Virus record (IMG/VR): IMGVR_UViG_3300027796_000194
DNA: 64,000 nt
Source: an uncultured virus (IMG/VR IMGVR_UViG_3300027796_000194)
Taxonomy: Duplodnaviria; Heunggongvirae; Uroviricota; Caudoviricetes
Reading direction: 5' to 3' (one strand)
The notes below the pieces were generated by a model, which made no database searches, was not told where the DNA came from, and saw nothing but the letters and a program-made list of their open reading frames with translations. Shown one piece after another: positions 9,734 to 53,173 of the stretch (position 1 is its first letter; each line of letters starts with the position of its first letter). The translations under genes were made by a program, and so were the position numbers.

Positions 9734-11644
9734 TTACACAGACATACATATCTCATCATCACCAAACCACCCCTCCGACAGTACGTGTTGTTTCACAGCT
9801 TGCGGATTGGCGGAATAACAAACTATAGCCAGACTTTGTTGAGCGCGACTGCATGTAACGTACAACAAGCGGCGAGTTCTATCGATGCCAGTCTCTTCTC
9901 CTGCTTGTTCGTGTTCAATGTCCGTCTTTGTCTTTCCTTTTACACCAAACAGTTTTTCATAACTAAAAAGAAATCCGCGCGCCGATTCATCATCGATAAT
10001 AACCATCACGCGCGGGAATTGTAGACCCTTAACTCCTTGATGCGTGTCAAAATCAGCACAACCTTGGATGTACTCTATGTATCCTTCTAGCTGCGCAAAT
10101 TCGGAGATAAGCATTTTGTCCCACGCAGAAATCTGAGAGGAATCTTCTTCACTTTCCTCAGTGGTTGAGTCGATGGATTCCTCTGCGGCCTTCTGCTCTT
10201 CCTCACTTCTTGCGGCAATGGTCTGTAGTTTCCCCGGAATCTCAAAAAGCCCCGTTTTCTGAACAGAACGAAGAACATCAACAAATCGCGGCTCTTTCCC
10301 TTCCGTCCATAACAACAACAAATCTTCAACCGCCTTCCTTGCTTTGAGGATTTGTTCTGACTGCTTCTCTGGATTTGCCTTCAATGTTTCCTTGGACAGT
10401 AAAGGGGAAAACTTTCTAACGATTGCTGCAACCTTGAATTTGTCCCCGGCCTTTTGAGCCCTAATTAAAGGCAATACTTGATCGGAGAAAAACTTAATTC
10501 CTGCAAGGGAGCCATCTAAGAGACCGATGTTCAGTGTGCCTTGTTTATATAAAGGCTCGAACATCGGCAAAAAGCCCATTCGATGGGCCGCCATGTGATG
10601 TTCGAGTATAAGGGTCTTGACGCCGTTGTTTTGCCATTCCGGATCGCCAGTAACCGTTTGCATGTGGTTGGCGGCTTTTCGTTCAAGGGCCGGTTTACCT
10701 TCGGCTGCGCTGGGAAGAATGAATATCCGAACCCACCCATCTTCTTTATCTGATCTCGGCTTTTGTTCCTGTTCGTCAACAGCAGCCCGGATTTTATTTA
10801 TCAGCCGGATTATTCGCTTGGGACTACGGTGATTTATAGTTTTGGCTGGTCTAGCCCAGTCAGGGGGCAGATTGCGTCCAAGGTCAGGTTTCCCATCCGC
10901 ATAAATCCTTTGCATCATGTCGCCAAACAGACCTAAGCAGAACTGCTGTTCCCAAATTTTCTGAACTGCAAAAAACGATTCCATAAGTAATTTATTTGTG
11001 TCTTGGCTCTCATCGATCAACAGTACTGGAAATCGATTTACTAAAATTCGCTGCATTGTAGGCTTGTCTGTTAAAAACGAAGCCCCAATCTTTATCACTT
11101 CGCTATGATTTAAAGAATCTTTTCCAAGATTTTCACCATTCGGATTGTAGGTAAAAACCCTAATTTGATCGAGTTGAGCCAATCGCTCCTGTTTAGAAAG
11201 AATCGACCTCGCTCGGTCGGAAAAAGTTTTGGTTGTGTGGCTCTTCGCCTTGATTTGAAGTCCTTGGAGTTTTTCAACATCGCTGCGGAGGTTCTCTTTT
11301 AACCAAAGACGAATATCCGCGTTAAATCCTTTAATGAGAGACCAAACAAAACTATGAATCGTTGAAACTTCAATAAGCGAATCGTGATCGAGACGTTCTT
11401 CAATTTCATCCCGCGCCGCATTCGTATACGTAATAACTCCGACTCTTTGCCCCTTTAGCCGTAATTGTGAGGCACTTTCTTTGCGAAGGTCCCTTAGACA
11501 ATTAACAACCGACCGGGTCTTTCCTGAACCTGCGCCAGCAAAAAGAAAGAAGCTTTTTGGTTGAGAAAGATCAACGCACTTACCAATCTGAGCATCCACA
11601 GCTTTATCAATATCATCGTCTTTTATAAAAACTTCTGCGCTCAT
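9734..11644 (-). CDS. gajB: UvrD-like helicase, Gabija GajB-like
   Basis: Walker A 'AGAGSGKT', 'IDESQDT', 'GDMMQRIY', 'THQGVKGLQF', 'RRLLYVTCSRA'. Its start overlaps the end of the OLD nuclease gene. Confidence 0.85.
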   Translation of the reverse strand: MSAEVFIKDDDIDKAVDAQIGKCVDLSQPKSFFLFAGAGSGKTRSVVNCLRDLRKESASQLRLKGQRVGVITYTNAARDEIEERLDHDSLIEVSTIHSFVWSLIKGFNADIRLWLKENLRSDVEKLQGLQIKAKSHTTKTFSDRARSILSKQERLAQLDQIRVFTYNPNGENLGKDSLNHSEVIKIGASFLTDKPTMQRILVNRFPVLLIDESQDTNKLLMESFFAVQKIWEQQFCLGLFGDMMQRIYADGKPDLGRNLPPDWARPAKTINHRSPKRIIRLINKIRAAVDEQEQKPRSDKEDGWVRIFILPSAAEGKPALERKAANHMQTVTGDPEWQNNGVKTLILEHHMAAHRMGFLPMFEPLYKQGTLNIGLLDGSLAGIKFFSDQVLPLIRAQKAGDKFKVAAIVRKFSPLLSKETLKANPEKQSEQILKARKAVEDLLLLWTEGKEPRFVDVLRSVQKTGLFEIPGKLQTIAARSEEEQKAAEESIDSTTEESEEDSSQISAWDKMLISEFAQLEGYIEYIQGCADFDTHQGVKGLQFPRVMVIIDDESARGFLFSYEKLFGVKGKTKTDIEHEQAGEETGIDRTRRLLYVTCSRAQQSLAIVCYSANPQAVKQHVLSEGWFGDDEICMSV

Positions 11645-13956
11645 TTATTACACTCCGCCTTTGCGGTTAACCCCGTACCTTGCGATAAAATCTCTTCCTG
11701 CTTCTTCTTTAATTCGGCCCCAAGCCATTCAAGCCCCTCTTTTATGTAGGTGGGTATTTTCAAAGCTTGGGGGTCTTGCAAGAAAAGCAATTCTAACGAA
11801 AACTCTGCCTTGCTTTTGCATTCCTTCAAAATCTGAAAAAGTTCAGCCCCAAGTTCGGCACTTGTTGTTTTTGCACTGATTGCGTCCTTAAATTTCTTAA
11901 TCAACCCAGTTCCCACAAGACTTTTGAGCAATTTTAGGTTTTCATATGCAAACGCATCTTCAAAAGTGTTTGATAAAGCTTCTTCCTCTTGACCATTTTC
12001 GGCAAGAACAGCTTTTATCGGAATTTGGTATGCGACCCGAACGCCATTAGATAGGCTGTGTTTCTTCTCCTTCTTATCGGCAGTAAGACTTAGCAGGTCG
12101 TCAAGAGAACATTTTTCAGGAATCCATTTTTCTAAAGTAGCGTTTCCCGTAACAAGCCCTTGCCCGCGCACCGGCTGGCGAGATTGACGGTTAGCTTTCG
12201 GGTCTACGGCGTCAAGATCAGTGATGATTAAAGTCGTAAGACCAAGCTTATCAACAAGTGGGCGAAAACGATGGGCGTGGCTTCCGCCAATTTCAAGTAT
12301 GCTTATATACGCTTGGCTGAGTCCCTCGAACTGCGCCTGAATAAAATGTGGAACGAGCATTCGTTCCGCTGCCCCTTCAACAAGTATCGCGGCGTCTGCA
12401 AAAAATAAATCACAGTGAGTTGCTTTTAGATAGCGAGTTACAAATTTTTCCGTCTCATCTCCGGTCCCGAAAACCTCTGAAAGATTTTCGACGGTTGTTG
12501 TCGGCGCTTTACCGCCTTCTTCACAAGGCAGTCTTCGAAAATAACGAAGATCCTTAAACTCGCATTCATGGGCAATATGACTGGAGTGGGTGCTTACGAC
12601 AAGCTGCGTGCAAAGCGTCTCTTTATCTCCAAGCTGGTCGTGTTTGCGAAGGATGGCATACGCCTTGTTTATAAAAACCTGTTGCACCTGAGCATGCAAA
12701 TGAGCTTCGGGTTCTTCTATCAGAACAAGGTGCAGGGGCGCATGATCGAGGGACTCTCCTTCTTCAACGGGCCGCTTGGACGCTTTTCCAACTTTCATCC
12801 AGCTATCTCTAAAACTCATCAACCGGAAAACCATTGAGATCAGATTTTGGTATCCCAACCCGTTATATTCTTCTGGAAGACGTAAACTCTTGCCGTCGAG
12901 TTGCTGTACAACCTCATATTGAACAGCCGCACTATGATTGAGGCCATCTGTCGGACGAATCCTTGTTGCAATTGTAATTCTGGGATCGGTAACGCCGGGA
13001 TAACCTAATGCCTCGACCTCTTGAAGCGACGGCCCAAAACCGGTCTTTAGTCGTTCATCAAACAGTGATTGAGCGTCCTCGATAGCTTGAAGGGCCGCAA
13101 GATCGCTCGCCTCCGGCATATCGAATGGATCAAGATGCCTTGCATAATAAGAGCGAAGTTGTCCGGAGAGCCTTGGTTTTTCGTCACTGCTGTTAATATC
13201 GTCCTCAGCATCCGCAAATCCACTCGCGTCGGAGAACCCCCTTTGTGCATTAATTTGATTAATCCGAATTAGCCCCTTGAATGGGTCTCCATCAAGCGGA
13301 TCCGAGTCCATTGAGATAGGCTGAGGATTCGCTTTCCCACTCTCAGGCAATTTGCATTTGTCCTGATCTAAAATATAGCCCCTAACTTCAAAATGTCCCT
13401 TCAAACGACGGTCAAGAAAATCCCGCAAAGAGCAGGGCCACAGATTAACGGTTATTTTACTGGATTCGTCTTGCGGATTTTTTGCTGCTTCCTTTGCATC
13501 ACGAGCAGCGGTAGCAGCGGCAATAAACTCCTTATAAAGATTCTCAATTGATTTGGGCTCCAAGCGTAGCCGGACGCCTAATATGCCTTTTGTCCAATCA
13601 AGTGTTGGAAGCAGATGCCGAACATAATGGACTTCATTCTCCTTAACATCCAACCACACATCCAGCGCAGGCAGAAGTTTTTCCCACTTGGCAAGGTCAC
13701 GATCCTTGGCCTCATGCCCTCCTGCTTCTTCCAACCAAGCGGAACCAATCTCATTAATCGCAATCCAATTAGACAGCGTAAAATCATTTGTCGAAAAACT
13801 CTTACGCTCAACAAGAAATTGCCGGAGGGCAACCATTGCAGATGTTTTACCACTATTATTGGCTCCAACAAAAAGGGTTGTTTTTGAGGAGAAATCAATC
13901 CGAACGCTTTTCAGCTTTCGAAAGTTTTGAACTTCAACAAAAGCTATTCTCATCAT
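11641..13956 (-). CDS. gajA: OLD-family ATP-dependent nuclease (ABC ATPase + TOPRIM), Gabija GajA-like
   Basis: 'VGANNSGKT', 'IEEPEAHLH', 'STHSSH', TOPRIM 'LFFADAAILVEGAAE...ITDLD'. Confidence 0.85.
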   Translation of the reverse strand: MMRIAFVEVQNFRKLKSVRIDFSSKTTLFVGANNSGKTSAMVALRQFLVERKSFSTNDFTLSNWIAINEIGSAWLEEAGGHEAKDRDLAKWEKLLPALDVWLDVKENEVHYVRHLLPTLDWTKGILGVRLRLEPKSIENLYKEFIAAATAARDAKEAAKNPQDESSKITVNLWPCSLRDFLDRRLKGHFEVRGYILDQDKCKLPESGKANPQPISMDSDPLDGDPFKGLIRINQINAQRGFSDASGFADAEDDINSSDEKPRLSGQLRSYYARHLDPFDMPEASDLAALQAIEDAQSLFDERLKTGFGPSLQEVEALGYPGVTDPRITIATRIRPTDGLNHSAAVQYEVVQQLDGKSLRLPEEYNGLGYQNLISMVFRLMSFRDSWMKVGKASKRPVEEGESLDHAPLHLVLIEEPEAHLHAQVQQVFINKAYAILRKHDQLGDKETLCTQLVVSTHSSHIAHECEFKDLRYFRRLPCEEGGKAPTTTVENLSEVFGTGDETEKFVTRYLKATHCDLFFADAAILVEGAAERMLVPHFIQAQFEGLSQAYISILEIGGSHAHRFRPLVDKLGLTTLIITDLDAVDPKANRQSRQPVRGQGLVTGNATLEKWIPEKCSLDDLLSLTADKKEKKHSLSNGVRVAYQIPIKAVLAENGQEEEALSNTFEDAFAYENLKLLKSLVGTGLIKKFKDAISAKTTSAELGAELFQILKECKSKAEFSLELLFLQDPQALKIPTYIKEGLEWLGAELKKKQEEILSQGTGLTAKAECNK

Positions 13957-15313
13957 TCCCCCTATCATCCACAAAAACTTGGTTTTGGTCGCTCTCTGTA
14001 CCAGCTGTTGAATCTTGATGACTATGAATAACCGCCACGACAGCTTTTTTATCACGCAACACTGCATCTATAATTGTTGTAAAATCTTGGGTTTGTGCAG
14101 AAAATGAACCAATATATCCTGAGCGAAGCAGATCCATAAACGGAGATTGATGCAGAAATTGTCCATCAAGGCTTTCATACGTCAGACGAATTCCTCCGCG
14201 AGGACCTTTGCTTTTTGGGCTTTCAATATATTTCAGGTAATGATCTATGGGGAGGATAATGCCCCCGTGTCTGATGGCTCCGTCTCTTTTTACGAATTTT
14301 AGATAAAACGTTTCAGGATTAATTCGATATTCATGCGGGCCGGGGAGATGAGTTTTCGAGAACTTTTGCATCTTTTTAATTTGATCTTTTAATTTTTTAT
14401 CGGGGATATATTTCCAGTCACGCCCCCATTCTCCATCATATGGGTTAAGCATTTTATATTGCAGCATAATGATATTATTTTTTGTTTGGTTTAAATATAT
14501 AAGGTCAACCCCAAATGCCTCTTCGAGATTTCCTCGGTTCGCCGTATAAACTTCCAGTTGCTCGCCCGCTCTGCGAAAGACGGCTCGACCTGTAATGTCG
14601 CTATGAACTAGCTTATACCCCGGCATGTGTCTAGCATCATGCTCAACTACAGTGTCTTCTCTAAGACTAATCTGATCAAGCACCGATTCTCGTTTATCTG
14701 TCAGCTCAACTGATGTGGCTGGATCGTTGATCGTAAGACCAAAGGCACCCAACGCCGTACTAAGCGCATCAAGCTGGACTCCCTTAATAGTACGAAAGGT
14801 TTGTGGTGCGGAAATTGAAGCCTCAATCGCACGAAGGGTACTTTGGTTCGAGGGAAACGCCGCGAGTTTTTCTATGAGAAGACTGCTCAGTTTAGGGGTA
14901 AGATGGATAATAGAATCTGGGCTATTTAGCCTTGTTTTAAAATTCGTTGCATGTGGCTTCTCGGAGATCAGCTTTATAAGATCATCCTCAGAAGAAGGGG
15001 CAATCTGGGCGGCCTTTCTGACTTTAATTCTCGTGTCTAGCGTTGTTACACCGCCGCGTGAGCCAAGCACCCCCATAAAAAGGTTTTGTTTGTTGTCATC
15101 TCGCCCGACAAGGAGGCAAAGAGAAAGCGGGCTTATCCCATTTAATAAGCCATGAGGTTTTGCGAATGTAAATTCTGCGGTGCCATGTTTAGAACTACAC
15201 AACGCTTGCCATTCATCTTCACCAAACCGAATAACAACGACAGGTCTCTTTTCAACGGCTTTTTTAAGAGAGGAAAGCCAATCCGCCTTTATTTCTGAGG
15301 TATCAGCATTCAT
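13934..15313 (-). CDS. Putative PD-(D/E)XK nuclease with an unknown N-terminal domain
   Basis: 'LEEAFGVDLIYLNQTKNNIIMLQYKML' (D...QxK). Overlaps both neighbouring genes. Confidence 0.65.
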   Translation of the reverse strand: MNADTSEIKADWLSSLKKAVEKRPVVVIRFGEDEWQALCSSKHGTAEFTFAKPHGLLNGISPLSLCLLVGRDDNKQNLFMGVLGSRGGVTTLDTRIKVRKAAQIAPSSEDDLIKLISEKPHATNFKTRLNSPDSIIHLTPKLSSLLIEKLAAFPSNQSTLRAIEASISAPQTFRTIKGVQLDALSTALGAFGLTINDPATSVELTDKRESVLDQISLREDTVVEHDARHMPGYKLVHSDITGRAVFRRAGEQLEVYTANRGNLEEAFGVDLIYLNQTKNNIIMLQYKMLNPYDGEWGRDWKYIPDKKLKDQIKKMQKFSKTHLPGPHEYRINPETFYLKFVKRDGAIRHGGIILPIDHYLKYIESPKSKGPRGGIRLTYESLDGQFLHQSPFMDLLRSGYIGSFSAQTQDFTTIIDAVLRDKKAVVAVIHSHQDSTAGTESDQNQVFVDDRGNDENSFC

Positions 15314-41194: not shown

Positions 41195-41506
41195 ATGGAG
41201 GCAAAGATGGAAAGCAGAATTTACAAAAACCCCAGCACCTATGACATCAAAAACAAGGGGTGTGGTTCTGAAGAGATTGAAGTCCTTTGCGACATTTTTG
41301 AAAGCCTGATGATGCAGCAAACAGGCAAAATGCTTCGCAAGGCGGTCTATAATCTCAAAGATTTTGAAAGTGCCGAGCAATTAGAAATCGACGCATTCAC
41401 CCTGACGTTAGAGCGTCACGATCATCCAGACCAAGATGAATGGCAAGGTCTTTTTGAGGCCAACAACCGCACCCTAGAGGTCTGGGGAACGGTAGAAGAA
41501 ACCTAA
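41195..41506 (+). CDS. Hypothetical moron protein
   Basis: 103-aa acidic ORF with its own TG-n-TATAAT element near 41153-41161. Confidence 0.6.
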   Translation: MEAKMESRIYKNPSTYDIKNKGCGSEEIEVLCDIFESLMMQQTGKMLRKAVYNLKDFESAEQLEIDAFTLTLERHDHPDQDEWQGLFEANNRTLEVWGTVEET

Positions 41507-42459
41507 TCCGCCACTTTGTATGTAAAGAGTGGGCGGAAAGCCCTATCGAATTTTTCCAGCTTATCTTGCATCCATGCGAATTGTTCCGGCCATGCCTTTT
41601 CGTCATTCGGGTCAACGGACGTATAAAGTTGAACACGTGAAGACTTATTGTCCGGCATCTCGCGCCATTCCATTTCCTCCCCGACAATCGCCTCGATAGT
41701 TTCTTTTTGTTTTATAAGCTCTGCAAAAAGTTCCTTCGCGTTATCTGAATTAATGGTTAGGCCAACGCCGATTCTGTTGTCCTTTGCAATAAGAAGGGCT
41801 GATGTGTGGGCACGGCTTGTCCCAATTCCGAAACTGTACCAGTGATCCCGCGACGGTTTTTGTGGACGCAGTTTGCTCTTTTGCTGATGCAAAAAGGCGC
41901 GGAAGGCCGTCCAGTATTTTAAGCGAAGGTTCTGTGTTGGCGTAGCGTCCTCGGATATGGCCTCGGCGGCATGCCGCACTGTGTTTTCCCAATCATTGGG
42001 TTCGCAGATAACATTAAAACGCGGGGCGGCAGGAGAGTCGCCTATTTTCCAAAGTTCAATCTCCAACCCAAAGAAACGAACAGAGCTGTCCGTCATCTGA
42101 TTGAGCCAATCCAAAGCGGCACGATGCTCCTCGCTAAAGTCAGCCGAGATCCAAACGATTGTTTGCGCCTTTAATCCGGCGGCATAGGTCAAGAGCTGGC
42201 CCAGATGTTTGTGATCAGTTTTTTCGATCTGGTTTTCGATCACAACCCAGCTGTCTTTCTCGGCTGTGTTCTTACACAAAAGATCGGCGCGGAACGGCCC
42301 AACGTCTTTCTCTTGGGCTTCAAGTTCCAGCTCCATTCCAAGAGTATCGCCCAAAATTTCGAGATTCTCCGGCTGCGCCAACCAAGGCGTGAAGTGCCGA
42401 TCTTCGCTTGTCCAAATTGACCGCAGATCAACGCTCTCGATACGACCCAGCTTTTCCAT
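41503..42459 (-). CDS. DUF4268 domain protein with N-terminal PD-(D/E)XK nuclease-like domain
   Basis: 'FTPWLA', 'RADLLC...VVIENQ...DHKHLGQLLTYAAG', C-terminal 'LKYWTAF...WRE'. Confidence 0.8.
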   Translation of the reverse strand: MEKLGRIESVDLRSIWTSEDRHFTPWLAQPENLEILGDTLGMELELEAQEKDVGPFRADLLCKNTAEKDSWVVIENQIEKTDHKHLGQLLTYAAGLKAQTIVWISADFSEEHRAALDWLNQMTDSSVRFFGLEIELWKIGDSPAAPRFNVICEPNDWENTVRHAAEAISEDATPTQNLRLKYWTAFRAFLHQQKSKLRPQKPSRDHWYSFGIGTSRAHTSALLIAKDNRIGVGLTINSDNAKELFAELIKQKETIEAIVGEEMEWREMPDNKSSRVQLYTSVDPNDEKAWPEQFAWMQDKLEKFDRAFRPLFTYKVAD

Positions 42460-42490: not shown

Positions 42491-43156
42491 ATGACGAATC
42501 AAGAAAAACTATCACGAGGCATCCGTAACAACAACCCCGGCAACCTACGCCGGACGGATGATCCGTGGCAGGGCTTGGCCAAGACCCAAACGGATACGGC
42601 CTTTTTCGTGTTTCAAACCCCAATTTATGGCATCCGCGCGTTGGCTCGGACGCTTATCAAATATCAGGACAAGCATGGTCTGAAAAGCATTCGCCAGATC
42701 ATCGGTCGGTGGGCACCCAGCACTGAAAACGATACCGTGGCCTATATTAAGGCCGTTTCTGAAGAGGCCTGTTTTGCGCCGGACGTTGTGCTGGATATGC
42801 ACAAATACGAACATCTGAAAGCAGTCGTCACGGCCATCATCCACCATGAAAACGGGCAACAGCCTTACACAGCCGCGCAAATTGACAAGGCGTTGGTTCT
42901 GGCTGGCATAGAGCCTCCGACCAAGAGCCTACAGCAAACGCGCACAGTCAAGGGCGGACAAGCGGCTACGGCGGCAACGGTGGGGCTTGGAGCCATCGAG
43001 GCCGTTAATAGCGCCATCACCCCAGCTCGCGACAGCCTTCAAATGCTGGTTCCTTATTTGGACATCGCTAAGTGGCTTTTGCTGGCCGTCACACTCATCG
43101 GTGTTGGAGCCATGATCTGGGCGCGGATCGACGACCACAGGAAAGGGCTGCGCTAA
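42491..43156 (+). CDS. Endolysin-like lysozyme-fold protein with C-terminal TM segments
   Basis: 'RGIRNNNPGNLR', 'GIRALARTL', 'RWAPSTENDT..Y', 'IIHHENG'. Confidence 0.8.
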   Translation: MTNQEKLSRGIRNNNPGNLRRTDDPWQGLAKTQTDTAFFVFQTPIYGIRALARTLIKYQDKHGLKSIRQIIGRWAPSTENDTVAYIKAVSEEACFAPDVVLDMHKYEHLKAVVTAIIHHENGQQPYTAAQIDKALVLAGIEPPTKSLQQTRTVKGGQAATAATVGLGAIEAVNSAITPARDSLQMLVPYLDIAKWLLLAVTLIGVGAMIWARIDDHRKGLR

Positions 43157-43989: not shown

Positions 43990-46900
43990 TTACATAAAAT
44001 CAAGATTATCCCAAGAACCGCGCCGTCTTCTGTGTCCCCCTCTGAGGATAGGCTCATATTCAGAAAAGGACGAAGGAAAGATAGGCATAAAGAAACACAT
44101 CGACGAACCGCCGCCACCCGCGCTGCCGCCCGAACCTACGCTCATGCTCGTAACTTGGGCGGCTGCTATTGTAAAATCCTCTCTTTTCTCTTCTTGCTTC
44201 GTTTCAGAAGAAGCAGAAGCCGAGGATGTTTCAACTTCAGCGGTAGATCTGGAACTATCGTCAACAGTTTGCTGCACGGCCTGTTGAACGGCAGGCTCTT
44301 CCTCCTGGTCTGATGATTTGCCCGCATTCTGCGATCCGGAAGGTGCTTCCTCCTCATCAGCCTGACTCTCAACCGTTTCGAGAACTTCGTTCTTGTCAGA
44401 AGATACGGGGGGATCGCCTTGCGTCGCAAGTTCGGCGGATTCCTCTTGAGAACTTTGCCCCATTGCCATGTTATCTTCCAATTGTACGGCAGCATCAGTG
44501 CCTTCTTCATAACCTGCATCAGCGGCCAAGTTTGTCTGCTTATCCCCAGAAAGAGCCTGATCTGCGACGTTGTTTTCTTGGGCTTCCTCAACTGTCGTCA
44601 CAGAAGCGTTTTGTCCAACCGTATCGGATAAATTAGCTGTTTCATCCGCTTGCTCAACCGCGTCCGTAGCTTGGGCCATTTCCGCTGTTTGTTGTTGAAT
44701 GTTATCTTCCGAGGCTACATGTTCTGCTGTTTCATTCCCATCGAGCGCGGGTTCGGTTTGGGCAGCATCGGTGGCCGAATGGGCAATCTCCGCCTTTAAT
44801 TCTGCGATTTCGGCTTGATGGCTTTCGTAGGTTCTTTCATAAGTCGCCGCCTCATTAGGGGACAGCTCTTCCATTCCATCTTTCAGAAGCTGGGAGGAGT
44901 ATTCCAGTTGCTCAAGCTTTTTTTCTGCGGCGGTCTTCTCGGTGTTCTCGTCCAAAGCAAAAAAATCTGCTTTATCTTGAAGCGAAGATTCGTTTTGCTC
45001 AGCTTGAGCCACATCCTCTGTGGCAGCGATTTCCTGAACATCGTTTTGAAGCGCTTTCTCGGCTTCAGTTCCTTCCGCTGTGGCAAGAGCGGCTTCTTCC
45101 ACCAACTGAGGCTTCTCGCTCGTTTGTTCCGTTTGGCTTGCCGTGATTTCCTTCGCGGCAGCAACCTCTTCAGTATCCAAATTTTGAGCCGTTGCATCTT
45201 CGGCAAGTGCGGCTTTTTCTTCTTCCGTCAGTTGGGCTTCCTCGTTCGCCTGTTCTGCCTGTTTGGCCGTAAGCTCCTGCGCGGCAGCTTTTTCCTCCGC
45301 CTCAATGGTTTCGGGCGTTGCCTCTTCTGTAAGTTCGGCTCTTGCTTTTTGAGCTTCCGCCGCTTTTTCTTCAGCAACGGCTTCGGCCTGCTGGGCTTCT
45401 TCCGTTTTTAGCGCGGCATCCTCTTTGGCCTCTACCGCTTCTTCGGCCTTTTGTTTGGCAACCTCTTTGGCCTCTTTAGCTTCCTCGGCCTTTTGGTCAG
45501 CCTCAGCTCTAGCTTCTTCTGCTTCTGTCGTTTTCTGTTTTGCTTCCTCTTGCGCCTGCAGAAACTCTTTGGTTTCTTGCTCTTCTTCAGTCGCCTGTTT
45601 GACGACTTCTTCCGCCTTTTGGGCTTCTTCCTCTTTTTCTAGGGCAATCTCCTCAGCCTTTTCCGCTTCCTTGGCTTTCTGTTGCGCTATTTCTTCGGCC
45701 TCAAGGGCTTCTTCTTCCTTCTTCTCCGCAAGCGCTTCGGCTTTTTGCGCCTCTTGCGATTTTTGCTGCGATTCCTGTTCCGCTAGTTCGGCCACTTCTT
45801 CCTTTTGCTGGACGGCTTCTTCGGCTTTTTTAGCTTCCTCGGCCTGTTGCGCTTCTTCTTGGGCGCGTTGTTCCTCAAGCGCCTTTTGTTCTTCTTCCTG
45901 ACGGCGGGCTTCTTCCTCTTTGAGGGCTGCTTCAGCCGCAAGCGCAGCGGCTTCGGCCTGCTGTTGTTCAGGCAAAATGGTTTCGACGATCTCTTGGGCC
46001 GCTTCGGCCTCGGCGGCGGTGCGGGCGATCTCCGCATTTAATTCCGCAATCTCAGCTTGATTCTTCTCGCAAACCCTTTCGTTAACCGCCGCCTCGTTAG
46101 GGGGCAGGTCTTCCATTTGGTCTTTCAAGAGCTGGGTGGAATATTCCAATCGCTCAATTCTCTCCGCCGCAGCCGCCGCTGTTTGCTCGGCAATCTGTGC
46201 CTTTTCATCGGCAAGAGCTTGGGCTTGCTCCAGTTCGGTTGTCTTCTGATCCGCCAAGGCGCGGGCTTCAGCGGCTTCTTGGTTTAGAACCTCTAATCTG
46301 TTTTCAGCTTCTTGTTGTTTTTCTAAAGCGTGCTTTTCTTTTTCTAATCTTACAGCTTCTTTTGCCTCCTCAACTAGTTCATGTATTTTTTTGTTGGCAT
46401 CAGGTGTCCCTATCTCAAGTGCTGCTCCTTCGAGATGCGCCTCAAGTATCCTTTTCTTGCTAGATTCGTCTAAACACACGTCTTGATCTACAATATCTGC
46501 ACCAACCTGATGCAGATAGTTGCTGACCACACCATTTATTTCGAGTTCTTTCTCCTGTTCCGGCGTGAATTGTGGGGCAGGGTATCCATTCTTTTCAGCG
46601 TCCTCATTTGCTGCACGTTCAATTTCTTGAGTTTTCTCGTAGATATAGTGAGTCATCTTGCCGTACTCCACCATATCTTCTTGCTCAAATCTAAACTCAG
46701 CAACGTGGCCGTTGCTGAGCCGGATCGTCATATTTACATCACGAAAGCCACTTTCGGTTGGGGTGGCAAAACGGTCTTTCAAGCTTGTGACATCATATTC
46801 GTCGGACATTTTTTGGGCATAGTCGCGGACGATTTGAACTTCCTCTAACGGACCAACAATTATTCTGCCGCGGATGATGTCAGTTATACGAGAACAAACC

Positions 46901-47112
46901 CCCTCGTAGTCTCCTTCAACCTTTTCTATGATGCGATTTTCGGCTTTCTCATTTATTTCTACAGTTGCGCTGTTAAAAAGATCTGGGTGAGCCTCCTTAA
47001 GATCTGAAAAGATGTTATGCACAACTTCTTGAAACTCAGGAAGAGCTTCCTTTCCTTGAGCAATTAATTCTTGCAGGCTAAAATTGGGGTTCTGCTTATA
47101 ATAGTCCGCCAT
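43990..47112 (-). CDS. RelA/SpoT-type small alarmone synthetase-like domain fused to a long acidic coiled-coil stalk
   Basis: 'KAENRIIEK..GDY', 'TDIIRGRII', 'KDRF..P..SGFRD', 'NGHVAEFR', 'HYIYEK', followed by ~750 aa rich in E/A/K/Q and an Arg-rich C-terminus. Confidence 0.8.
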   Translation of the reverse strand: MADYYKQNPNFSLQELIAQGKEALPEFQEVVHNIFSDLKEAHPDLFNSATVEINEKAENRIIEKVEGDYEGVCSRITDIIRGRIIVGPLEEVQIVRDYAQKMSDEYDVTSLKDRFATPTESGFRDVNMTIRLSNGHVAEFRFEQEDMVEYGKMTHYIYEKTQEIERAANEDAEKNGYPAPQFTPEQEKELEINGVVSNYLHQVGADIVDQDVCLDESSKKRILEAHLEGAALEIGTPDANKKIHELVEEAKEAVRLEKEKHALEKQQEAENRLEVLNQEAAEARALADQKTTELEQAQALADEKAQIAEQTAAAAAERIERLEYSTQLLKDQMEDLPPNEAAVNERVCEKNQAEIAELNAEIARTAAEAEAAQEIVETILPEQQQAEAAALAAEAALKEEEARRQEEEQKALEEQRAQEEAQQAEEAKKAEEAVQQKEEVAELAEQESQQKSQEAQKAEALAEKKEEEALEAEEIAQQKAKEAEKAEEIALEKEEEAQKAEEVVKQATEEEQETKEFLQAQEEAKQKTTEAEEARAEADQKAEEAKEAKEVAKQKAEEAVEAKEDAALKTEEAQQAEAVAEEKAAEAQKARAELTEEATPETIEAEEKAAAQELTAKQAEQANEEAQLTEEEKAALAEDATAQNLDTEEVAAAKEITASQTEQTSEKPQLVEEAALATAEGTEAEKALQNDVQEIAATEDVAQAEQNESSLQDKADFFALDENTEKTAAEKKLEQLEYSSQLLKDGMEELSPNEAATYERTYESHQAEIAELKAEIAHSATDAAQTEPALDGNETAEHVASEDNIQQQTAEMAQATDAVEQADETANLSDTVGQNASVTTVEEAQENNVADQALSGDKQTNLAADAGYEEGTDAAVQLEDNMAMGQSSQEESAELATQGDPPVSSDKNEVLETVESQADEEEAPSGSQNAGKSSDQEEEPAVQQAVQQTVDDSSRSTAEVETSSASASSETKQEEKREDFTIAAAQVTSMSVGSGGSAGGGGSSMCFFMPIFPSSFSEYEPILRGGHRRRRGSWDNLDFM

Positions 47113-47150: not shown

Positions 47151-47453
47151 TTAATCATTTTTAAATTCAGATCTTGGAAGATGCTTGCGTCTGTTCGACA
47201 TGTAATCACGAACAAGATCCACGAATTCTTCTTTTGTAACAGATGTCACATCATCCTCTTTCCGGATCACAGACAGCATATGAATGTTAGGCATCAGAAC
47301 CCCGTCTTTCTTGTGATCTGGGCACTCAGCAAATATTTTTAATTTACGTTTATTGATTGTAACTCTAACGGGTATGATGGACCCCACACAGTAATATTTG
47401 TAATTTCCATCGGCTTCCGGTGAAGGGGAGATATAGGGTTTTTCTTCAGTCAT
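47151..47453 (-). CDS. Putative immunity/antitoxin protein
   Basis: 100 aa, 'YKYYCVGSIIPVRV...LSVI....V..VTKEEF'. Directly upstream of the synthetase. Paralogue of the N-terminus of the next gene. Confidence 0.65.
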   Translation of the reverse strand: MTEEKPYISPSPEADGNYKYYCVGSIIPVRVTINKRKLKIFAECPDHKKDGVLMPNIHMLSVIRKEDDVTSVTKEEFVDLVRDYMSNRRKHLPRSEFKND

Positions 47454-47501
47454 TGTCTTCTACCTTTCTGGTTATTGCATTCGAGTTTCCGAAAGCCGAG
47501 T

Positions 47502-48395
47502 TTATTTCACAGCACGCCAATGTGTACAACGAATGTCATCTCTTATTTTTACAACTATCTTTTTCTTTTCCGGCGTCAGCTCTTTGCCAAGATTGTTGCT
47601 TTCAAGGTCTTGCGCGATTTCATGAGGTAAACTCGTCAGTTTTCGTGCGGACATCATTTTTGTATATTCGATGCGAAATTCTGCTACATGCCCATTTTTC
47701 AATTTCACGTTCGTCAATACATCGCGATAAAGGTCATTCGCTGGCGTCTCAAAGCGATTCCTAATCCTTACAAGATTAAGAGCCTCTGCATATTTTTTGA
47801 TGTATTCTATGGCAAGGCCAACTTCTTCAGCTGTGTTCACAACGATCCAACCACAGCATAGGTTTACGGCTCTCCACAGCTTTCCATCGTAGTCCCTTCG
47901 AAGTTTTGCCTCAGCTTTGCCTTTGTCCTTTAAGTTGGCCGTCTCAAATCTGGCGTCTTCAAACTTGCCTGGAAATTTTGTTCGAAGATCATCCAGAACA
48001 TTGTCACCAAACTGACTCAGAAGCGGGGTGGACTCGACGGCTTTAGCATACAACTCATCAAAATTTAGTTCTCGATTCTGAAAACAAGCGCTGTCCTCAA
48101 CGCGAGGGGTGTTTGACAAAGCCATTCTTTTGCAATAGGTGGCGTACCCCTCACAAAATCCGATAAAGTCCTCTTTTGTAATCTCATCAGCATATTCCTC
48201 CTTAAATATCATTGAGAGCATAGAATTGTTGACCTTCATTTGTCCCGGCATGCCATCGTTCGGCATTTCCGCAAGACACTCATGTTTGTTCTCATCAAGT
48301 TTAACCCGAACAGGCATATCTCCTGCGACCAGATAATACTTGTAATCTCCATCGGCTTCCGGTGGAGGGGCGATATAGTTCTTTTCTTCTGTCAT
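47502..48395 (-). CDS. Immunity-like domain fused to a degenerate RelA/SpoT domain
   Basis: N-terminus matches 47151-47453 at protein and DNA level. C-terminus 'RDYDG...NLCCGWIV...RNRFETP..LYRD..NVKLKNGHVAEFR' has the conserved Asp replaced by Asn. Confidence 0.75.
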   Translation of the reverse strand: MTEEKNYIAPPPEADGDYKYYLVAGDMPVRVKLDENKHECLAEMPNDGMPGQMKVNNSMLSMIFKEEYADEITKEDFIGFCEGYATYCKRMALSNTPRVEDSACFQNRELNFDELYAKAVESTPLLSQFGDNVLDDLRTKFPGKFEDARFETANLKDKGKAEAKLRRDYDGKLWRAVNLCCGWIVVNTAEEVGLAIEYIKKYAEALNLVRIRNRFETPANDLYRDVLTNVKLKNGHVAEFRIEYTKMMSARKLTSLPHEIAQDLESNNLGKELTPEKKKIVVKIRDDIRCTHWRAVK

Positions 48396-48406
48396 TTTTC
48401 CATTCC

Positions 48407-51400
48407 TCACTTCGGCGGCGCGATTGCTTTTAGCTCAGGGCGCTGCCTTGGCAGTTTTGGCGGAACCAGCGGCCCGCGTATTCTTAGTCTTTCGCTTTGC
48501 GCGTCGAAAGCGCGTTCCATGTCCTCCATGTCCCTGATCGCACGGGCGTGGGCCCGATGGTGCGCGGCGGCGCGGGCCTCGTCCAAACGTCTAGCAAAGC
48601 CCTCGAAGCTTACCTGCGCTTCGTTGAGGCGCATGACCTGTCCGTTGAACTGCCTTATCTTGCCGATGGTACCCATCACGTTCTGCTGACCTTCACGGAT
48701 CTGCTTGCGCAAAAGCTGATGATAGGAGTCTTCATCCTCACGAAGACCCGTGACGTATCCCCGGACAAGGCCGTCGAACTTTTCGAGGTGTGGGTCTTTC
48801 ACCGACTCCAGCGCGGCATCCATCAGCATAACGTCTTTGCGATCACGCCGCTTTTTGGAAGGTGCCAGTTCGGCACGACGCGACACGGCGTCGCCAACCG
48901 TCTTGATGTCGTCCGGCAGATCATATCCGGTCAAGGGCGTGTCAAAATAGGCCTCCAGCTCCTTGCGCGTTTCCACGCCCTTTTCAGGGAGAACGGCAAG
49001 TTCTTGCGAGACTTCTGGGGCCAACACCTCGGCCTCGAACATCTCCGGCATCGGAGCCGTGCGACTTGTTAAAGCGCGTGGTGGTGGCGGGCCAAGTTTG
49101 GTGGGCGTGACCAAAGGGGGCTGGACAAGATAATCGCCTCTGTCGAAGTCAAAGAACTTCTCGCGGACTCTCCCATATTTGCGCAATTTGTTGGCGTAGC
49201 GCACCCAATCCCCCGAAGACCAGCCACTTACGGCACCGCTTCGGATTTCTCCAAATAACTCACGGCTGGTTGCTAGATTGGCGCGGTGCTCTTCCAACAG
49301 TTCCGTCAATACCTCATGACTGTTAGCCAGAGCGGACTCCATCTTCCCGTTTCCGGTAACGAGTTCATGCTGCCGCTCGACGGTTTCGTTTATATACTCC
49401 TTGGTGGCATCGTGAGCTTCCATGACGGGATCAAGTTGATCCCTGACCATCTTCATGGCCGCACCGCGCATGTCCGTGTAGTCCTTCCAGCAAACAAACT
49501 TCTCGCGTACCAGTTTGTATCGCTGCCATGAGGCGGCGGCTATGCCCGTCAACATCAACGCGCCAAACGTGATTCCGGCAGCCATAATTGAACCGCCGAC
49601 ATAGCAAGTCGTAGCGACTCCGGCTGCGGTCGCGGCCTTGACGTATGGACTGCGGAAGAAACTGTTAAAGAAGCCGGGCTTTTCATTGAACTTGTCCAGC
49701 CGATACCGCGCTCCGAGATACCTTTCGCAGGTCTCTTTAACGCCTTGCCCCCATTCGGAAAGCTTCGCGGGAGCCGTCCACGCGACAGGATTCTTAGGCA
49801 CCCAATTCAGCTTGCTTTCGTCCAAATTGAACCCCTCCAGATCAACGGGCGGCATCGGCTTCAGCCGTACAACCGTCTTCTTGGGCGGATCGGGGAAAGC
49901 AGGAGCTTCAGGTATAGGCGGGCCTTCCGCACGCTCCCTCAAAAACGGTATTTCATAGTATCGCGCCTGCTGGTCCAAAGTGCAATGGCTCTGCTTCCTG
50001 CCGCTGATAAAAAGGATCTGTTTTTCACCGGAAAAACAATCTTCTATCTGACGGGCATCCATTCCATCTATGACAATGGGCTGATAAGACAGGTTATAAT
50101 TCGTGCTCCAACTCTCGTTGTTGTTGCGCCCCTTTTGCGTGGTTTCGCTTTCAGCGGTGCCTCCCCCCTTGGAATCGGTCTTGCCGGACTGGGTTGACTC
50201 ACCTTGCGTGTCAGCCGTGCCGTGGGAGGTCGATGTCGAGCCACCCGATCCGGAACTTGATCCACCGGGACCGGACATGCTGCTCCAAAAGTTAGAAAGC
50301 GTTGTTACGATGGAGTTCGTTTTTTGGGCCGTCCTTCCGACAGAGTTTGAGACCGCGACTTGCCAAGTATTTTGGTCAACCGTTCCCTTGGCGACAGACT
50401 CTTGCTCCCCAACGCCGAGTTGGATTCCCTGTCCTTCGCTCACGGTCGGCACATAGACCATGTAGCGGCCAAGACGCTTGCTGATATATTCAATCGATTT
50501 GGGTTCGTGACTGCGAAGAAACTGGACGACTTCCGAAGACCCAAGAAAAGCGGCGGCTCGTTCTTCGCCGTAAACATCCCTCAGACTTGCGTAGTCCTGA
50601 AACAAGCTCCAAAAGATGATGCCTTTTTGGCGTACCGTTTGAGCGCCCGTCGCAATGGCCTGAAGATGCCCCAGTTGCGTTAACTCATCGATCATGAACA
50701 GGATGCGGTCTTCCTTCTTAAAGTCTTTTCCTCCATTGCCCGGATTAGGCGTGCCATCAATTGCGCTTTGCAAAATAAGACGAAGCCACGGCTGATAATT
50801 GATATACTCGTCAACGTTCGGCATGACGATGTAGATCGTCGTTTTTTTGCCACGCAGGTCCATCATGGAGAAGTCCGAGGAAACCATGTGCTGACCAAGA
50901 CAATCATCAGCCATCCATTTGTCTAACCATTGGGAAGTCGCCGTGACGACGGAGCGCACGTTCTGGTCTCCGGGTTGGGCCGTGCTAAGATAATTTCCGA
51001 ACTTATTCAGCAATCTTTGATGCGGGCCGCGCCACCCTGTTAGCTCTGCAATGTGTTTGTCCCACGCTTCCGACGGAAACTCGCTGAAGATTTTTGCCAT
51101 ATAAACAAAATTCTTGTGCTCATAGGGTATTGTGTCTGCCAGCTTCAGATAGACGATCATCGCCGCAATAAGACCGCTCGGATTTTCCCTAAAATAGGGA
51201 TTTTGCTCCTTATGTCCCTGCGAATCTGATATGAGAGCAGATGACATTGTTAGAATGCGGCTATAAAAATCAGGCTCCTTTGGATCTAGATCGTCCATAG
51301 GATTGTAGTTGCTTGATCCCAATCCGATGATGTTCTGGGGATCAAAAATATAAATATCCTGCCCAAGAGTCCATTTGCGATGATTGTAAGTCCTCTTGAA

Positions 51401-51739
51401 CGTAGCCCCGCCGATCTCAAGGGAAACAACGGAGCCTGCATAGGATAAAAGGTTAGACGTTGCCGAAGCGGCGGTCTTTCCCGATCCTGTATTGCCTATG
51501 ACGTTCCCGTGCGTTTCAACATCCTGATAAATAGGCACGCCATTATACGCGCCGACAATGAGACCATGGGGATCAGCAAGACAATCCGATCCATTGTCCA
51601 TGACGTTCTGGACGGAAATGAGTGCCTTGTTGTCGGCATGGTATTGAACGGGGGCTATATTGAAAGGCCGTTCAATTGCCCTGTCCAACTTCGTGAGGAC
51701 TTGGAGTTCCTCTTTTTTCTTTTCCAAAACTGGGAGCAT
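48407..51739 (-). CDS. VirD4/TraG-like coupling ATPase with Ser/Thr/Gly-rich insert and C-terminal TM/coiled-coil extension
   Basis: Walker A 'GNTGSGKT', 'YNPMDDL', Walker B 'FMIDELTQLG', 'FQDYASLRDVYG'. Confidence 0.85.
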   Translation of the reverse strand: MLPVLEKKKEELQVLTKLDRAIERPFNIAPVQYHADNKALISVQNVMDNGSDCLADPHGLIVGAYNGVPIYQDVETHGNVIGNTGSGKTAASATSNLLSYAGSVVSLEIGGATFKRTYNHRKWTLGQDIYIFDPQNIIGLGSSNYNPMDDLDPKEPDFYSRILTMSSALISDSQGHKEQNPYFRENPSGLIAAMIVYLKLADTIPYEHKNFVYMAKIFSEFPSEAWDKHIAELTGWRGPHQRLLNKFGNYLSTAQPGDQNVRSVVTATSQWLDKWMADDCLGQHMVSSDFSMMDLRGKKTTIYIVMPNVDEYINYQPWLRLILQSAIDGTPNPGNGGKDFKKEDRILFMIDELTQLGHLQAIATGAQTVRQKGIIFWSLFQDYASLRDVYGEERAAAFLGSSEVVQFLRSHEPKSIEYISKRLGRYMVYVPTVSEGQGIQLGVGEQESVAKGTVDQNTWQVAVSNSVGRTAQKTNSIVTTLSNFWSSMSGPGGSSSGSGGSTSTSHGTADTQGESTQSGKTDSKGGGTAESETTQKGRNNNESWSTNYNLSYQPIVIDGMDARQIEDCFSGEKQILFISGRKQSHCTLDQQARYYEIPFLRERAEGPPIPEAPAFPDPPKKTVVRLKPMPPVDLEGFNLDESKLNWVPKNPVAWTAPAKLSEWGQGVKETCERYLGARYRLDKFNEKPGFFNSFFRSPYVKAATAAGVATTCYVGGSIMAAGITFGALMLTGIAAASWQRYKLVREKFVCWKDYTDMRGAAMKMVRDQLDPVMEAHDATKEYINETVERQHELVTGNGKMESALANSHEVLTELLEEHRANLATSRELFGEIRSGAVSGWSSGDWVRYANKLRKYGRVREKFFDFDRGDYLVQPPLVTPTKLGPPPPRALTSRTAPMPEMFEAEVLAPEVSQELAVLPEKGVETRKELEAYFDTPLTGYDLPDDIKTVGDAVSRRAELAPSKKRRDRKDVMLMDAALESVKDPHLEKFDGLVRGYVTGLREDEDSYHQLLRKQIREGQQNVMGTIGKIRQFNGQVMRLNEAQVSFEGFARRLDEARAAAHHRAHARAIRDMEDMERAFDAQSERLRIRGPLVPPKLPRQRPELKAIAPPK

Positions 51740-51754: not shown

Positions 51755-53173
51755 TTACGGTGCAGGCGTGTTGTTAGGCTTGTTGCCAGAGGCAGCGTCT
51801 TTTCGTCTTTGAGCCAAGCTCACAACCGTCCCCATTAGGCCTGATTGATTTTTGTCATCCTCCTCAAATCTTTCACGGCGAGGATGAACGGCGTCTTTCA
51901 CCATTTGTGCTCCCGTTTGTATGGCCGTCCCCATATTTTCTCCGGAGAAAAGAGTATCGATTTCGCACAAACGAGTTTTGACTTCCTGCGCGACGGGATT
52001 CTTTTTGCAGGCATTCGTCATGGCATCACGATAGCGGTGAACCATGTCGCCGACCGCGACTCTGGCGGCAGCTTCGCCACGCGAGGATTCCAGATCATGA
52101 ACGAACAGTTCTTTAACCCGACGCTGCGCCGTTTCTTTCCGCCCTTTTCGGAAAGTCGAAGCTGCGTGCGCAATGACCGTCGCAACAACCAACTGAGAGG
52201 CAATGAGCCAAGCCCCCAGATAACCCGCTCCAAGTATCTGCCCCCACCATGTGGCGGGGCTTTCCGCATCTGTCTTCTTCTTGTTTGATGTCAGACTCGC
52301 TGCTGTTGCTTTGGCTTCGCCAAGAAGTTTTTCATCTTCGGGAATGGTCACGTTTATCAATTGTCGACCCTGTTCGTCGTTGCCTGTGTAGCCGTCGCCC
52401 AAGATGGGTTTTCCACCGATGCCGCCGTGATCAAGCGTGTCCCTGTCTCTTGCGAGTTTCTCGGTGAAGTGAATGGCTTGCGCCTCTGCCTTGGCCAAGC
52501 TCTCGTCAGCCGTATAGGATTGTGAGCGCAAACTCTGCGGTAACATGTTTGCAAAATGACCTTTGAAGTTCGGATTGTCCGCCGCGAGCATTGAAGCGCC
52601 GATACTTGCAGTAACCAGCAATCCTCCGAGAAACACTCGAAATCCTTTATGCTCGGACAAGCCAATGCCCGCCGCGAAAACGAGAGAGCCTCCCGCAAGA
52701 GCCGTAAACCACGGGTTGTTTTGCATAAGGCCATTTGCGGCACCACCGAAGATCGCGACGTCAATAGCGCCGCCAGCGATCAGGGCCACGACAGGAACCG
52801 TGCAGGTCAACAGACGGCTTCCCATCATATGCGCGCCGAGCTGCCACCAGCGTGCGCCGACTTCCGCCTTCGCCGCCCGGTATTGCGCCAAAACGGCTGA
52901 ACCAGCCATATGTCCCAAACCTTCTGGAGATAATTTTCCTCCCTCGCGTTCGATGCGATATGCTTGGTCAATGGTCTCGGCAGGCTTGGATGGGCCATCG
53001 AAATCCGGCTTTTCGACTGTATTGAGCGTGCGTTCAGCAAAAGTGTGCTCCGCCTCCGGCGGCATCACCCCCGTTTCGTTTTCAGAGGCGGCTTTGCTTT
53101 CCGCTTTTTCCTGCTTTTTCCCCTGATCTTGTTCTTTATCTTTTTCCTGAACTATTGCTTCGCCTTCGCTCAT
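51755..53173 (-). CDS. Multi-pass membrane protein with coiled coil
   Basis: About four hydrophobic segments. First gene of the operon. Confidence 0.75.
   Translation of the reverse strand: MSEGEAIVQEKDKEQDQGKKQEKAESKAASENETGVMPPEAEHTFAERTLNTVEKPDFDGPSKPAETIDQAYRIEREGGKLSPEGLGHMAGSAVLAQYRAAKAEVGARWWQLGAHMMGSRLLTCTVPVVALIAGGAIDVAIFGGAANGLMQNNPWFTALAGGSLVFAAGIGLSEHKGFRVFLGGLLVTASIGASMLAADNPNFKGHFANMLPQSLRSQSYTADESLAKAEAQAIHFTEKLARDRDTLDHGGIGGKPILGDGYTGNDEQGRQLINVTIPEDEKLLGEAKATAASLTSNKKKTDAESPATWWGQILGAGYLGAWLIASQLVVATVIAHAASTFRKGRKETAQRRVKELFVHDLESSRGEAAARVAVGDMVHRYRDAMTNACKKNPVAQEVKTRLCEIDTLFSGENMGTAIQTGAQMVKDAVHPRRERFEEDDKNQSGLMGTVVSLAQRRKDAASGNKPNNTPAP

What the first reader, a model, noticed from the sequence alone, without database searches (positions are those of the whole stretch)
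47151..48395. Duplicated immunity-like domain, one copy fused to an apparently dead synthetase
Seen: 'MTEEK.YI.P.PEADG.YKYY.V....PVRV' begins both ORFs, and DNA 47395-47453 closely matches 48337-48395. The fused RelA/SpoT domain has N in place of the conserved Asp (NLCCG vs DIIRG) and lacks H..YE. The gene order X-SYN*, X, SYN suggests an ancestral X+SYN pair was duplicated and one copy fused and decayed. Inference: SYN* could be a decoy or sensor, loosely analogous to the pseudo-domain antitoxin logic of CapRel.
Basis: partly seen in the sequence, partly recalled or inferred. Interest (0 to 1): 0.7.

Follow-up and report, generated by a model that had tools for sequence, protein, structure and literature searches.

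The report
Antitoxin fused to its disarmed toxin
Beside phage genes lies a bacteria-poisoning enzyme gene with its small antidote gene, and next to them an older antidote welded to a disarmed but still well-folded copy of the poison, which may serve as a spare shield against rival poisons.

Summary
X (47151-47453) is an unnamed immunity family: a Tas1/Apk-like synthetase lies within 1.5 kb in 28 of 30 X loci of one bacterial order. Its model's top PDB match is Tis1 (Z 3.9, weak). The downstream 1040-aa gene keeps the catalytic residues. The 297-aa fusion X*-SYN* has lost Syn2 Asp, Syn2 Arg and Syn5 His, kept in 59, 56 and 56 of 59 relatives, yet keeps 43 of 47 hydrophobic core columns and an open frame over a long branch. 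So it looks disarmed rather than decaying. A two-chain model docks X* on SYN* at the acceptor site (0.74, best control 0.00), possibly from memory of Tas1-Tis1. The copies are old paralogues (45% and 33% identical), not a recent duplication. The genes sit in a VirD4-linked toxin/immunity cassette whose layout recurs with another toxin in 4 of 320 genomes. The fusion was found only in its own cluster of three variants. Best reading: accessory immunity with a pseudo-enzyme scaffold. CapRel-like sensing has no direct support.

The parts
48108..48395 (-). X*: Tis1-like immunity domain, residues 1-96 of the fusion
   Evidence: 45% to X; 46 of 90 identical to free-standing P0027; predicted to dock on SYN* mainly through residues 54-68
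47502..48083 (-). SYN*: whole Apk/Tas1-like synthetase domain without export tail; Asn178, Cys181, Leu227 and Ser255 stand where the family has Asp, Arg, Asn and His; Lys156, Lys164, Arg224 and Glu239 are kept
   Evidence: RelA/SpoT fold
47151..47453 (-). X: free-standing 100-aa immunity protein, probable cognate of the synthetase behind it
   Evidence: 41 hits among cluster representatives; model pLDDT 85; top fold match Tis1, Z 3.9; linkage to SYN
43990..47112 (-). SYN-long: 1040 aa; N-terminal Apk/Tas1-like synthetase with intact motifs, long acidic Ala/Glu/Gln/Lys-rich stalk, Ser/Gly-rich and Arg-rich end
   Evidence: 8 of 8 core residues kept; profile of SYN, SYN* and 12 relatives hits Tas1 best, E 2.9e-11; composition
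48407..51739 (-). VirD4/TraG-like coupling ATPase with long C-terminal extension; ends 11 nt before the fusion's ATG
   Evidence: PF02534 E 1.5e-45; homologues head toxin/immunity-like cassettes in 4 of 320 genomes
51755..53173 (-). 472-aa gene of no known family at the head of the putative operon
   Evidence: no Pfam, NCBIfam, PHROG or PADLOC match
47392..47454 (.). 63-nt repeat, 87% identical to 48334-48396; the conserved N-terminal coding stretch of X and X*

Best explanation
The cassette encodes an Apk/Tas1-type alarmone synthetase toxin (SYN-long), probably making (p)ppApp and probably handed to a type IV secretion machine by the VirD4-like protein. X binds it at the acceptor-nucleotide site and protects the producer. 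X*-SYN* is a second, old immunity-toxin pair that fused, lost the export tail and lost catalysis, but is still kept folded by selection. It most likely works as accessory immunity: SYN* is a dead scaffold that holds and stabilises X*, and X* can move onto an active synthetase of its own lineage arriving from a rival or encoded elsewhere. Shown: sequence anatomy, family linkage, loss of conserved residues, kept core. Modelled: X*-SYN* docking. Inferred: toxicity, product, export, docking within one chain, and exchange onto a live toxin.
For: X-SYN linkage: 28 of 30 X-centred loci hold SYN within 1.5 kb and 25 of 30 SYN-centred loci hold X (overlapping sets); 9 of 17 X loci from a GTDB-wide motif scan have SYN directly behind X. 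HD hydrolase-X-SYN triples and HD-X fusions mirror the Apk2 / Tis1-like / Aph1 three-gene systems (PMC10083569, passages), and the fusion occupies the slot before X that the hydrolase fills there. Residue loss: none of 59 other full domains loses two of Asp, Arg and His; SYN* loses three, or two in variant P0003. The equivalent Asp change inactivates SaEAS, and R330 and N370 bind ATP in Apk1 (PMC12691689 section 5; mapped through the Tas1 alignment with an offset of 21 that I inferred). Kept fold: 43 of 47 hydrophobic columns, against 44 in the intact neighbour and a background of 0.42. The 17 P0001/P0003 differences in SYN* are more conservative than neutral change, p 0.004-0.013. A neutrally decaying frame stays open with probability 0.086 to 0.004 while losing 3-4 of 8 core residues. 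Docking score 0.74, best of 3 controls 0.00; that mark was reached by 116 of 157 solved and 2 of 215 mismatched pairs; runs agree in at least 90% of contacts, partner pLDDT at least 83. The interface lies on the Tyr223 loop and C-terminal hairpin, the side Tis1 is reported to block (PMC11782079, passages).
Against: The fusion was found only in its own cluster of three proteins, so there is no family-wide conservation. Selection tests are mixed: the 9 P0001/P0002 differences are not conservative (p 0.34-0.39); loss at conserved polar against non-polar columns is not significant (8 of 14 kept against 10 of 13, p 0.42); variable sites avoid conserved columns only at p 0.05. No dN/dS was possible. 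The long branch may date from when the ancestor was active, since the intact neighbour's branch is as long. If X* docks on its own SYN*, it is occupied, which works against immunity unless the bond is weak. The docking pass may come from likeness to the solved Tas1-Tis1 complex and used family alignments. The Tis1 fold match is weak (Z 3.9, rmsd 4.0, 62 aligned). No VirB gene appeared among the 30 window ORFs scanned with Pfam.
Confidence: 0.45

Rival explanations
1. Relic of a toxin/immunity array. A spare X*-SYN cassette fused by chance. Only X*, or uninterrupted translation into the downstream X gene, is selected, and SYN* is a passenger drifting under weak constraint against misfolding.
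For: Arrays of X with truncated synthetases exist (L119; an internally deleted synthetase behind X in L059). Free-standing P0027 is the sister of X* and their likeness ends at residue 90. The fusion is confined to one cluster. The Asp-to-Asn change differs among the three variants, so erosion is continuing. Two of the selection tests are not significant.
Against: The relic synthetases in L119 are truncated and keep Syn2, whereas SYN* is whole, ends at the domain end and has lost catalytic residues. The core is as well kept as in the intact copy. All three variants, which differ at 13-31 of 297 positions, keep the frame, although a protein cluster can only show unbroken ones.
Confidence: 0.27
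2. SYN* is a nucleotide-binding or altered enzyme: a sponge for (p)ppApp or ATP that replaces the missing HD hydrolase, or, in the P0003 allele, a still active synthetase held shut in cis, that is, a fused toxin-antitoxin of the Tis1 type.
For: Lys156, Lys164, Arg224 and Glu239 are kept in all three variants, and P0003 keeps the Asp too. HD hydrolases stand beside X in 11 of the motif-scan loci, but none is encoded between VirD4 and SYN-long here.
Against: The ATP-binding Arg and Asn named for Apk1 (PMC12691689 section 5) and the Syn5 His and Tyr are gone in all three variants. The docking model puts X* over the acceptor site.
Confidence: 0.15
3. Decoy or sensor: SYN* is bait for a phage or rival protein that targets such synthetases or their antitoxins; binding opens the fusion and changes how much X-type protein is free, switching SYN-long on or off.
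For: A closed state is modelled. The cassette adjoins phage lysis genes. Fused CapRel senses phage proteins (PMC11782079, passages).
Against: Opening a dead enzyme releases immunity, not toxicity. No PADLOC match for X, the fusion or SYN-long. The stalk, VirD4 and the sister cassettes point to export rather than abortive defence. No trigger was identified.
Confidence: 0.13

Closest known systems
Tas1 (Apk1) - Tis1 of Pseudomonas aeruginosa, PDB 6OX6
   Same: Best PDB sequence hit of the family profile (E 2.9e-11); Tis1 is the top fold match of X among 48,161 chains (Z 3.9); predicted binding on the acceptor side.
   Different: Toxin domain is N-terminal with a C-terminal stalk, with no PAAR; immunity lies upstream; Syn4 reads E-F-R instead of E-I-Q in this subclade; VirD4 next door; an extra immunity fused to a dead synthetase.
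Apk2 / IapK (Tis1-like) / Aph1 three-gene prophage systems (PMC12226406, PMC10083569)
   Same: Synthetase plus small binding immunity; many relatives add an HD hydrolase; phage-associated; best phage hit is a portal-linked gene of this layout in phage PHB04.
   Different: No MuF domain, not in the head module, and no HD gene in this cassette; the fusion takes that position.
CapRel fused toxin-antitoxin (PMC11782079)
   Same: Synthetase fold and an antitoxin-like domain in one chain, with a modelled closed state.
   Different: CapRel is an active tRNA pyrophosphokinase with a C-terminal pseudo-zinc-finger at the donor site; here an N-terminal Tis1-like domain sits on a dead Apk-type domain.
Polymorphic toxin loci with orphan cassettes and polyimmunity proteins (PMC3482391)
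   Same: Immunity arrays, tandem X-repeat proteins, swapped toxin heads on similar loci.
   Different: The passages read describe immunity-immunity fusions and toxin cassettes, not an immunity domain fused to a whole inactive copy of its toxin.
Antibacterial type IV secretion effectors (Xanthomonas, Bartonella; search listing only)
   Same: VirD4-like gene, immunity gene before effector gene, N-terminal toxin with C-terminal tail.
   Different: No XVIPCD or BID family hit in Pfam; no VirB gene among the 30 ORFs scanned.

Membership tests
RelA/SpoT synthetase fold (SYN*) | SYNTH fold | tested here: met
   Atlas model pLDDT 0.77 matches RelA_SpoT clusters; top nine VIA hits are RSH enzymes, Z 6.3-7.9, on a poor model of pLDDT 44; profile hits
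Active alarmone synthetase (SYN*) | Syn2 Asp and Arg, Syn3 Asn/His, Syn5 His | tested here: not met
   Asn178, Cys181, Leu227, Ser255; P0003 keeps only the Asp
Active alarmone synthetase (SYN-long) | Syn1-Syn5 residues | tested here: met
   8 of 8 core residues; Syn4 Gln replaced by Arg, as in intact-looking relatives such as L024 and L030
Apk (p)ppApp synthetases | Asn at the Syn3 site (GxN in PMC12226406) | tested here: met
   SYN-long has Asn aligned with Tas1 N370; that paper shows motifs alone do not fix specificity
Apk (p)ppApp synthetases | Makes (p)ppApp from ATP | not testable with these tools
   Needs an assay; a related exported synthetase makes only (p)ppGpp (PMC12691689 abstract)
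Apk1 / Apk2 | N-terminal PAAR or MuF domain | tested here: not met
   The synthetase starts at residue 7; no Pfam or PHROG hit
Tis1-like immunity (X, X*) | Tis1 fold | tested here: inconclusive
   Rank 1 of 48,161 but Z 3.9, rmsd 4.0, 62 aligned, tied within 1 Z with unrelated chains; Foldseek found nothing at E 0.001
Tis1-like immunity (X, X*) | Small gene adjacent to an Apk-like synthetase | tested here: met
   28 of 30 and 9 of 17 loci
Tis1-like immunity (X, X*) | Binds at the acceptor-nucleotide site | tested here: inconclusive
   Model only: 0.74 against control 0.00, interface on the Tyr223 loop and hairpin; may be recalled from Tas1-Tis1
CapRel | Active synthetase with C-terminal pseudo-zinc-finger antitoxin | tested here: not met
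   The chain ends at the synthetase domain end, the extra domain is N-terminal, and catalytic residues are lost
CapRel | Activation by a phage protein | not testable with these tools
   No trigger known
Type IV secretion effector | Coupling protein and VirB machine in the genome; C-terminal signal | tested here: inconclusive
   VirD4-like neighbour and Arg-rich end present; the whole genome is not held

The most novel reading that the evidence does not exclude
X*-SYN* is a selected 'holstered' antitoxin: a Tis1-like domain docked in cis on a purpose-kept dead copy of its toxin, released by exchange onto a live synthetase or by a trigger protein. It would be a pseudo-enzyme layer of immunity that replaces the usual (p)ppApp hydrolase, inside an undescribed VirD4-linked polymorphic toxin system of Micavibrio-like bacteria.
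Probability: 0.22. Interest if true: 0.8.

Novelty: new variant of a known kind. Interest (0 to 1): 0.55.

Why it matters
Known toxic alarmone synthetases are checked by a binding immunity, a product hydrolase, or a fused pseudo-zinc-finger. An immunity domain carried on a dead copy of its own toxin would be a further arrangement, and it is cheap to test in E. coli with two natural alleles that differ at the catalytic Asp. As a non-toxic single chain it may also ease solving the structure of this immunity-toxin family. Apart from the fusion, the work outlines an unnamed immunity family in 31 of 320 genomes of one order, and a VirD4-linked cassette with exchangeable toxin heads, which makes these little-studied bacteria's weapons testable. 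If the fusion is a relic, what remains is a new member of the Apk/Tis1 kind.

Tried and rejected
Other X-SYN fusions were not found: single-protein search, 952 candidates; X profile against longer proteins, 7996 candidates scored, weak evidence; 9239 frames of 125 loci; 401 genomes of the class with the fusion as query, 3 matches, all to SYN only. A search for longer SYN relatives returned nothing, not even the window's own protein. Motif scans for close X relatives gave no confirmed locus in genomes or metagenomes. In viral contigs they gave only the window's own record, three methyltransferase false hits and two matches with no X hit, so the genomic context of the closest X subfamily, including P0027, is unknown. 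Three broader alignments were too diverse for the locus finder. The metagenome SYN motif scan gave 1 real locus of 11. Pfam, NCBIfam, PHROGs and PADLOC name neither X nor SYN; no X match in plasmids. The single-sequence fold of the fusion was poor (pLDDT 44) and says nothing on docking in cis. No RNA holder was listed, and laid contigs gave no variant across the fusion, so no dN/dS. The promoter and terminator scan gave nothing usable. Three look-ups in earlier findings were empty. Dropped rows: 3 of 41 X hits judged spurious repeats by eye (P0025, P0031, P0039); L031 dropped as a motif-only X hit; 5 short or truncated domains left out of the SYN tree; the AU test used 26 of the 63 rows. Rejected: assembly artefact, recent tandem duplication, membership of CapRel.

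Full report
What is there. On the minus strand, right after a phage lysis module (endolysin 42491-43156; portal and integrase further left), run five genes: a 472-aa unknown, a VirD4-like ATPase (PF02534, E 1.5e-45), the 297-aa fusion X*-SYN*, the 100-aa X, and a 1040-aa protein with an N-terminal synthetase domain and a long acidic stalk. An IMG/VR record holds the same DNA. The X/SYN block is lower in GC (0.39-0.44) than VirD4 or the phage genes (0.53-0.56). Contigs of three runs agree with the window letter for letter, but may be its source.

X is an immunity family. It has 41 hits among cluster representatives; I judged three spurious, and the rest are mostly small free-standing or tandem-repeat proteins. 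A motif scan of GTDB genomes gave 27 loci, 17 with X, and 9 of these have a synthetase gene directly behind X. An HD hydrolase stands beside X in 11 (PF13328 for one of them). In the order of a genome titled Micavibrio sp., 31 of 320 genomes hold X; 28 of 30 X-centred loci have a synthetase within 1.5 kb, and 25 of 30 synthetase-centred loci have X (the sets overlap). Small genes behind distant synthetases in Deinococcus and a metagenome contig hit the X profile weakly (E 0.0012, 0.11, 0.0017). The X model (pLDDT 85) ranks Tis1 first among 48,161 chains, with a weak Z of 3.9. A profile of 14 synthetase domains hits Tas1 best (E 2.9e-11). This matches the Apk / Tis1-like / Aph1 layout described in PMC10083569 (passages) and PMC12226406 (parts 1-3 of 4 read).

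SYN* is disarmed. Among 59 other full domains the Syn2 Asp is kept in 59, the Syn2 Arg in 56 and the Syn5 His in 56, and none lacks two of them. SYN* lacks all three and the Syn3 Asn, while SYN-long keeps all 8 core residues. PMC12691689 (abstract, sections 5 and 9, passages) reports that D121A inactivates SaEAS and lists R124/R330, N169/N370 and E182/E382 as ATP-binding; by the alignment, with an offset that I inferred, SYN* keeps only the Glu. Variant P0003 keeps the Asp but not the others. The E-F-R form of Syn4 is shared with intact-looking relatives and is no sign of decay. The Syn labels are my recalled shorthand for the RSH motifs.

Is it decaying? SYN* covers the whole domain and stops at its last helix. 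It keeps 43 of 47 family-hydrophobic columns, against 44 in SYN-long. It sits on a stem of 1.4-2.2 changes per site with three short tips. A neutral simulation keeps the frame open with probability 0.086 to 0.004 while 3-4 of 8 core codons change; one of those positions, the Syn1 Arg, varies in the family anyway (41 of 59), so this is moderate support. The 17 differences to P0003 are conservative (p 0.004-0.013), the 9 to P0002 are not (p 0.34-0.39). Polar against non-polar loss is not significant (p 0.42), and variable sites avoid conserved columns only at p 0.05. On balance, selection on the fold is likely but not proven; no dN/dS could be computed.

Origin. SYN* is 35-37% identical to the Micavibrio L024 enzyme and 28% to its neighbour. 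No bootstrap tree of 200 joined SYN* with SYN-long, but the AU test does not reject one clade (p 0.574). X* groups with free-standing P0027 (SH-aLRT 97), and X and X* fall in one 21-row subfamily. The pair is therefore an old paralogue, from an ancient duplication or re-acquisition. No second X-SYN fusion was found, although HD-X and HD-SYN fusions occur.

Docking. With X* and SYN* as two chains, each with my own family alignment, the score was 0.74 against a best control of 0.00; that mark was reached by 116 of 157 solved and 2 of 215 mismatched pairs; runs agree in at least 90% of contacts and the partner's pLDDT is at least 83. Contacts map to fusion residues 167-178, 219-227 and 258-285, against X* 54-68: the Tyr223 loop and the C-terminal hairpin. 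PMC11782079 (passages) states that Tis1-like domains block the acceptor site. The pass may come from likeness to the solved Tas1-Tis1 complex; it supports family-level binding, not that this copy binds or does so in cis. Several altered residues (178, 227, 258) lie in the interface, which could loosen the self-bond; that is inference.

Context. The VirD4-like gene has homologues in 4 of 320 genomes of that order. In all four it is followed by one to five smaller genes, several paralogous, and then a 517-711-aa protein with a related N-terminal domain and a Ser/Gly-rich end; HTH genes like the window's lie nearby in three. One of these proteins hits ADP-ribosyl cyclase (E 3e-4, below cut-off) with an Imm74-like gene upstream (E 0.005). 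The window thus looks like the same cassette with another toxin head, and the fusion stands in the immunity slot. The tails are not homologous by BLAST, no VirB gene appeared among 30 of the window's ORFs scanned, and the genome is not held, so export and host are inferred.

Mechanism and rivals. Most likely (0.45) the fusion is accessory immunity on a dead scaffold. Rivals: a relic kept for X* or for read-through (0.27), a nucleotide sponge or residual enzyme (0.15), a decoy or sensor (0.13). The anatomy itself, a Tis1-type immunity beside an Apk-type toxin with an inactive fused paralogue, I hold at about 0.85.

Novelty. Five literature searches (listings and abstract starts only) and the passages read in five papers showed no immunity domain fused to an inactive copy of its synthetase; subscription papers and supplements were not seen and could list such proteins. 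PMC3482391 (passages) covers cassette arrays and polyimmunity proteins. I rate it a new variant of a known kind, interest 0.55, held down by the fusion's single lineage and the untested function.

Noticed in passing
L047:1714-2124 (-) and L011:4356-4793 (+): Immunity-like genes behind synthetases that join an X-like N-terminal part to a stretch resembling the synthetase's own C-terminal hairpin (L047: X E 0.0017, SYN profile positions 157-196 E 0.0009; L011 by eye). A second case of immunity plus toxin-fragment mimic.
   Followed up: partly
L127-L130: VirD4-like gene, array of small genes, then a toxin-like protein with a weak ADP-ribosyl cyclase hit, in 4 of 320 genomes; an apparently undescribed polymorphic cassette.
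   Followed up: partly
L121, L122 and L063-L113: A recurring arrangement of a 255-400-aa synthetase, a 110-165-aa gene, X and often a second synthetase; it lies between ndk and alaS in the two contexts fetched (gene names recognised by eye). Many of these synthetases vary at the Syn1 Arg but keep Asp, Arg, Glu and His.
   Followed up: partly
L119:5896-9195: Tandem array: truncated synthetase, X, truncated synthetase, X, full synthetase.
   Followed up: partly
L030, L058, L103, L104, L106: HD hydrolase-X fusions and HD hydrolase-synthetase fusions followed by X.
   Followed up: no
L019:3144-4613, L037: HD-X pairs left without a synthetase; a zeta-toxin-like head (PF06414, E 5e-8) or another head sits on a similar glycine-zipper tail.
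   Followed up: partly
window 9734-14067 (-): Gabija-like pair: GajB E 8.6e-251, GajA E 1.6e-295, with a PIN-domain gene upstream.
   Followed up: no
window 41503-42459 (-): PDC-S11 / DUF4268 defence candidate inserted between tail and lysis genes.
   Followed up: no
window 44765-44915 and 46007-46157: 151-nt internal repeat (75%) within the SYN-long stalk.
   Followed up: no
L012:5552-6037 (-): A small ORF on the opposite strand inside a large phage protein, just behind its synthetase domain, that may be an embedded immunity gene (by eye).
   Followed up: no
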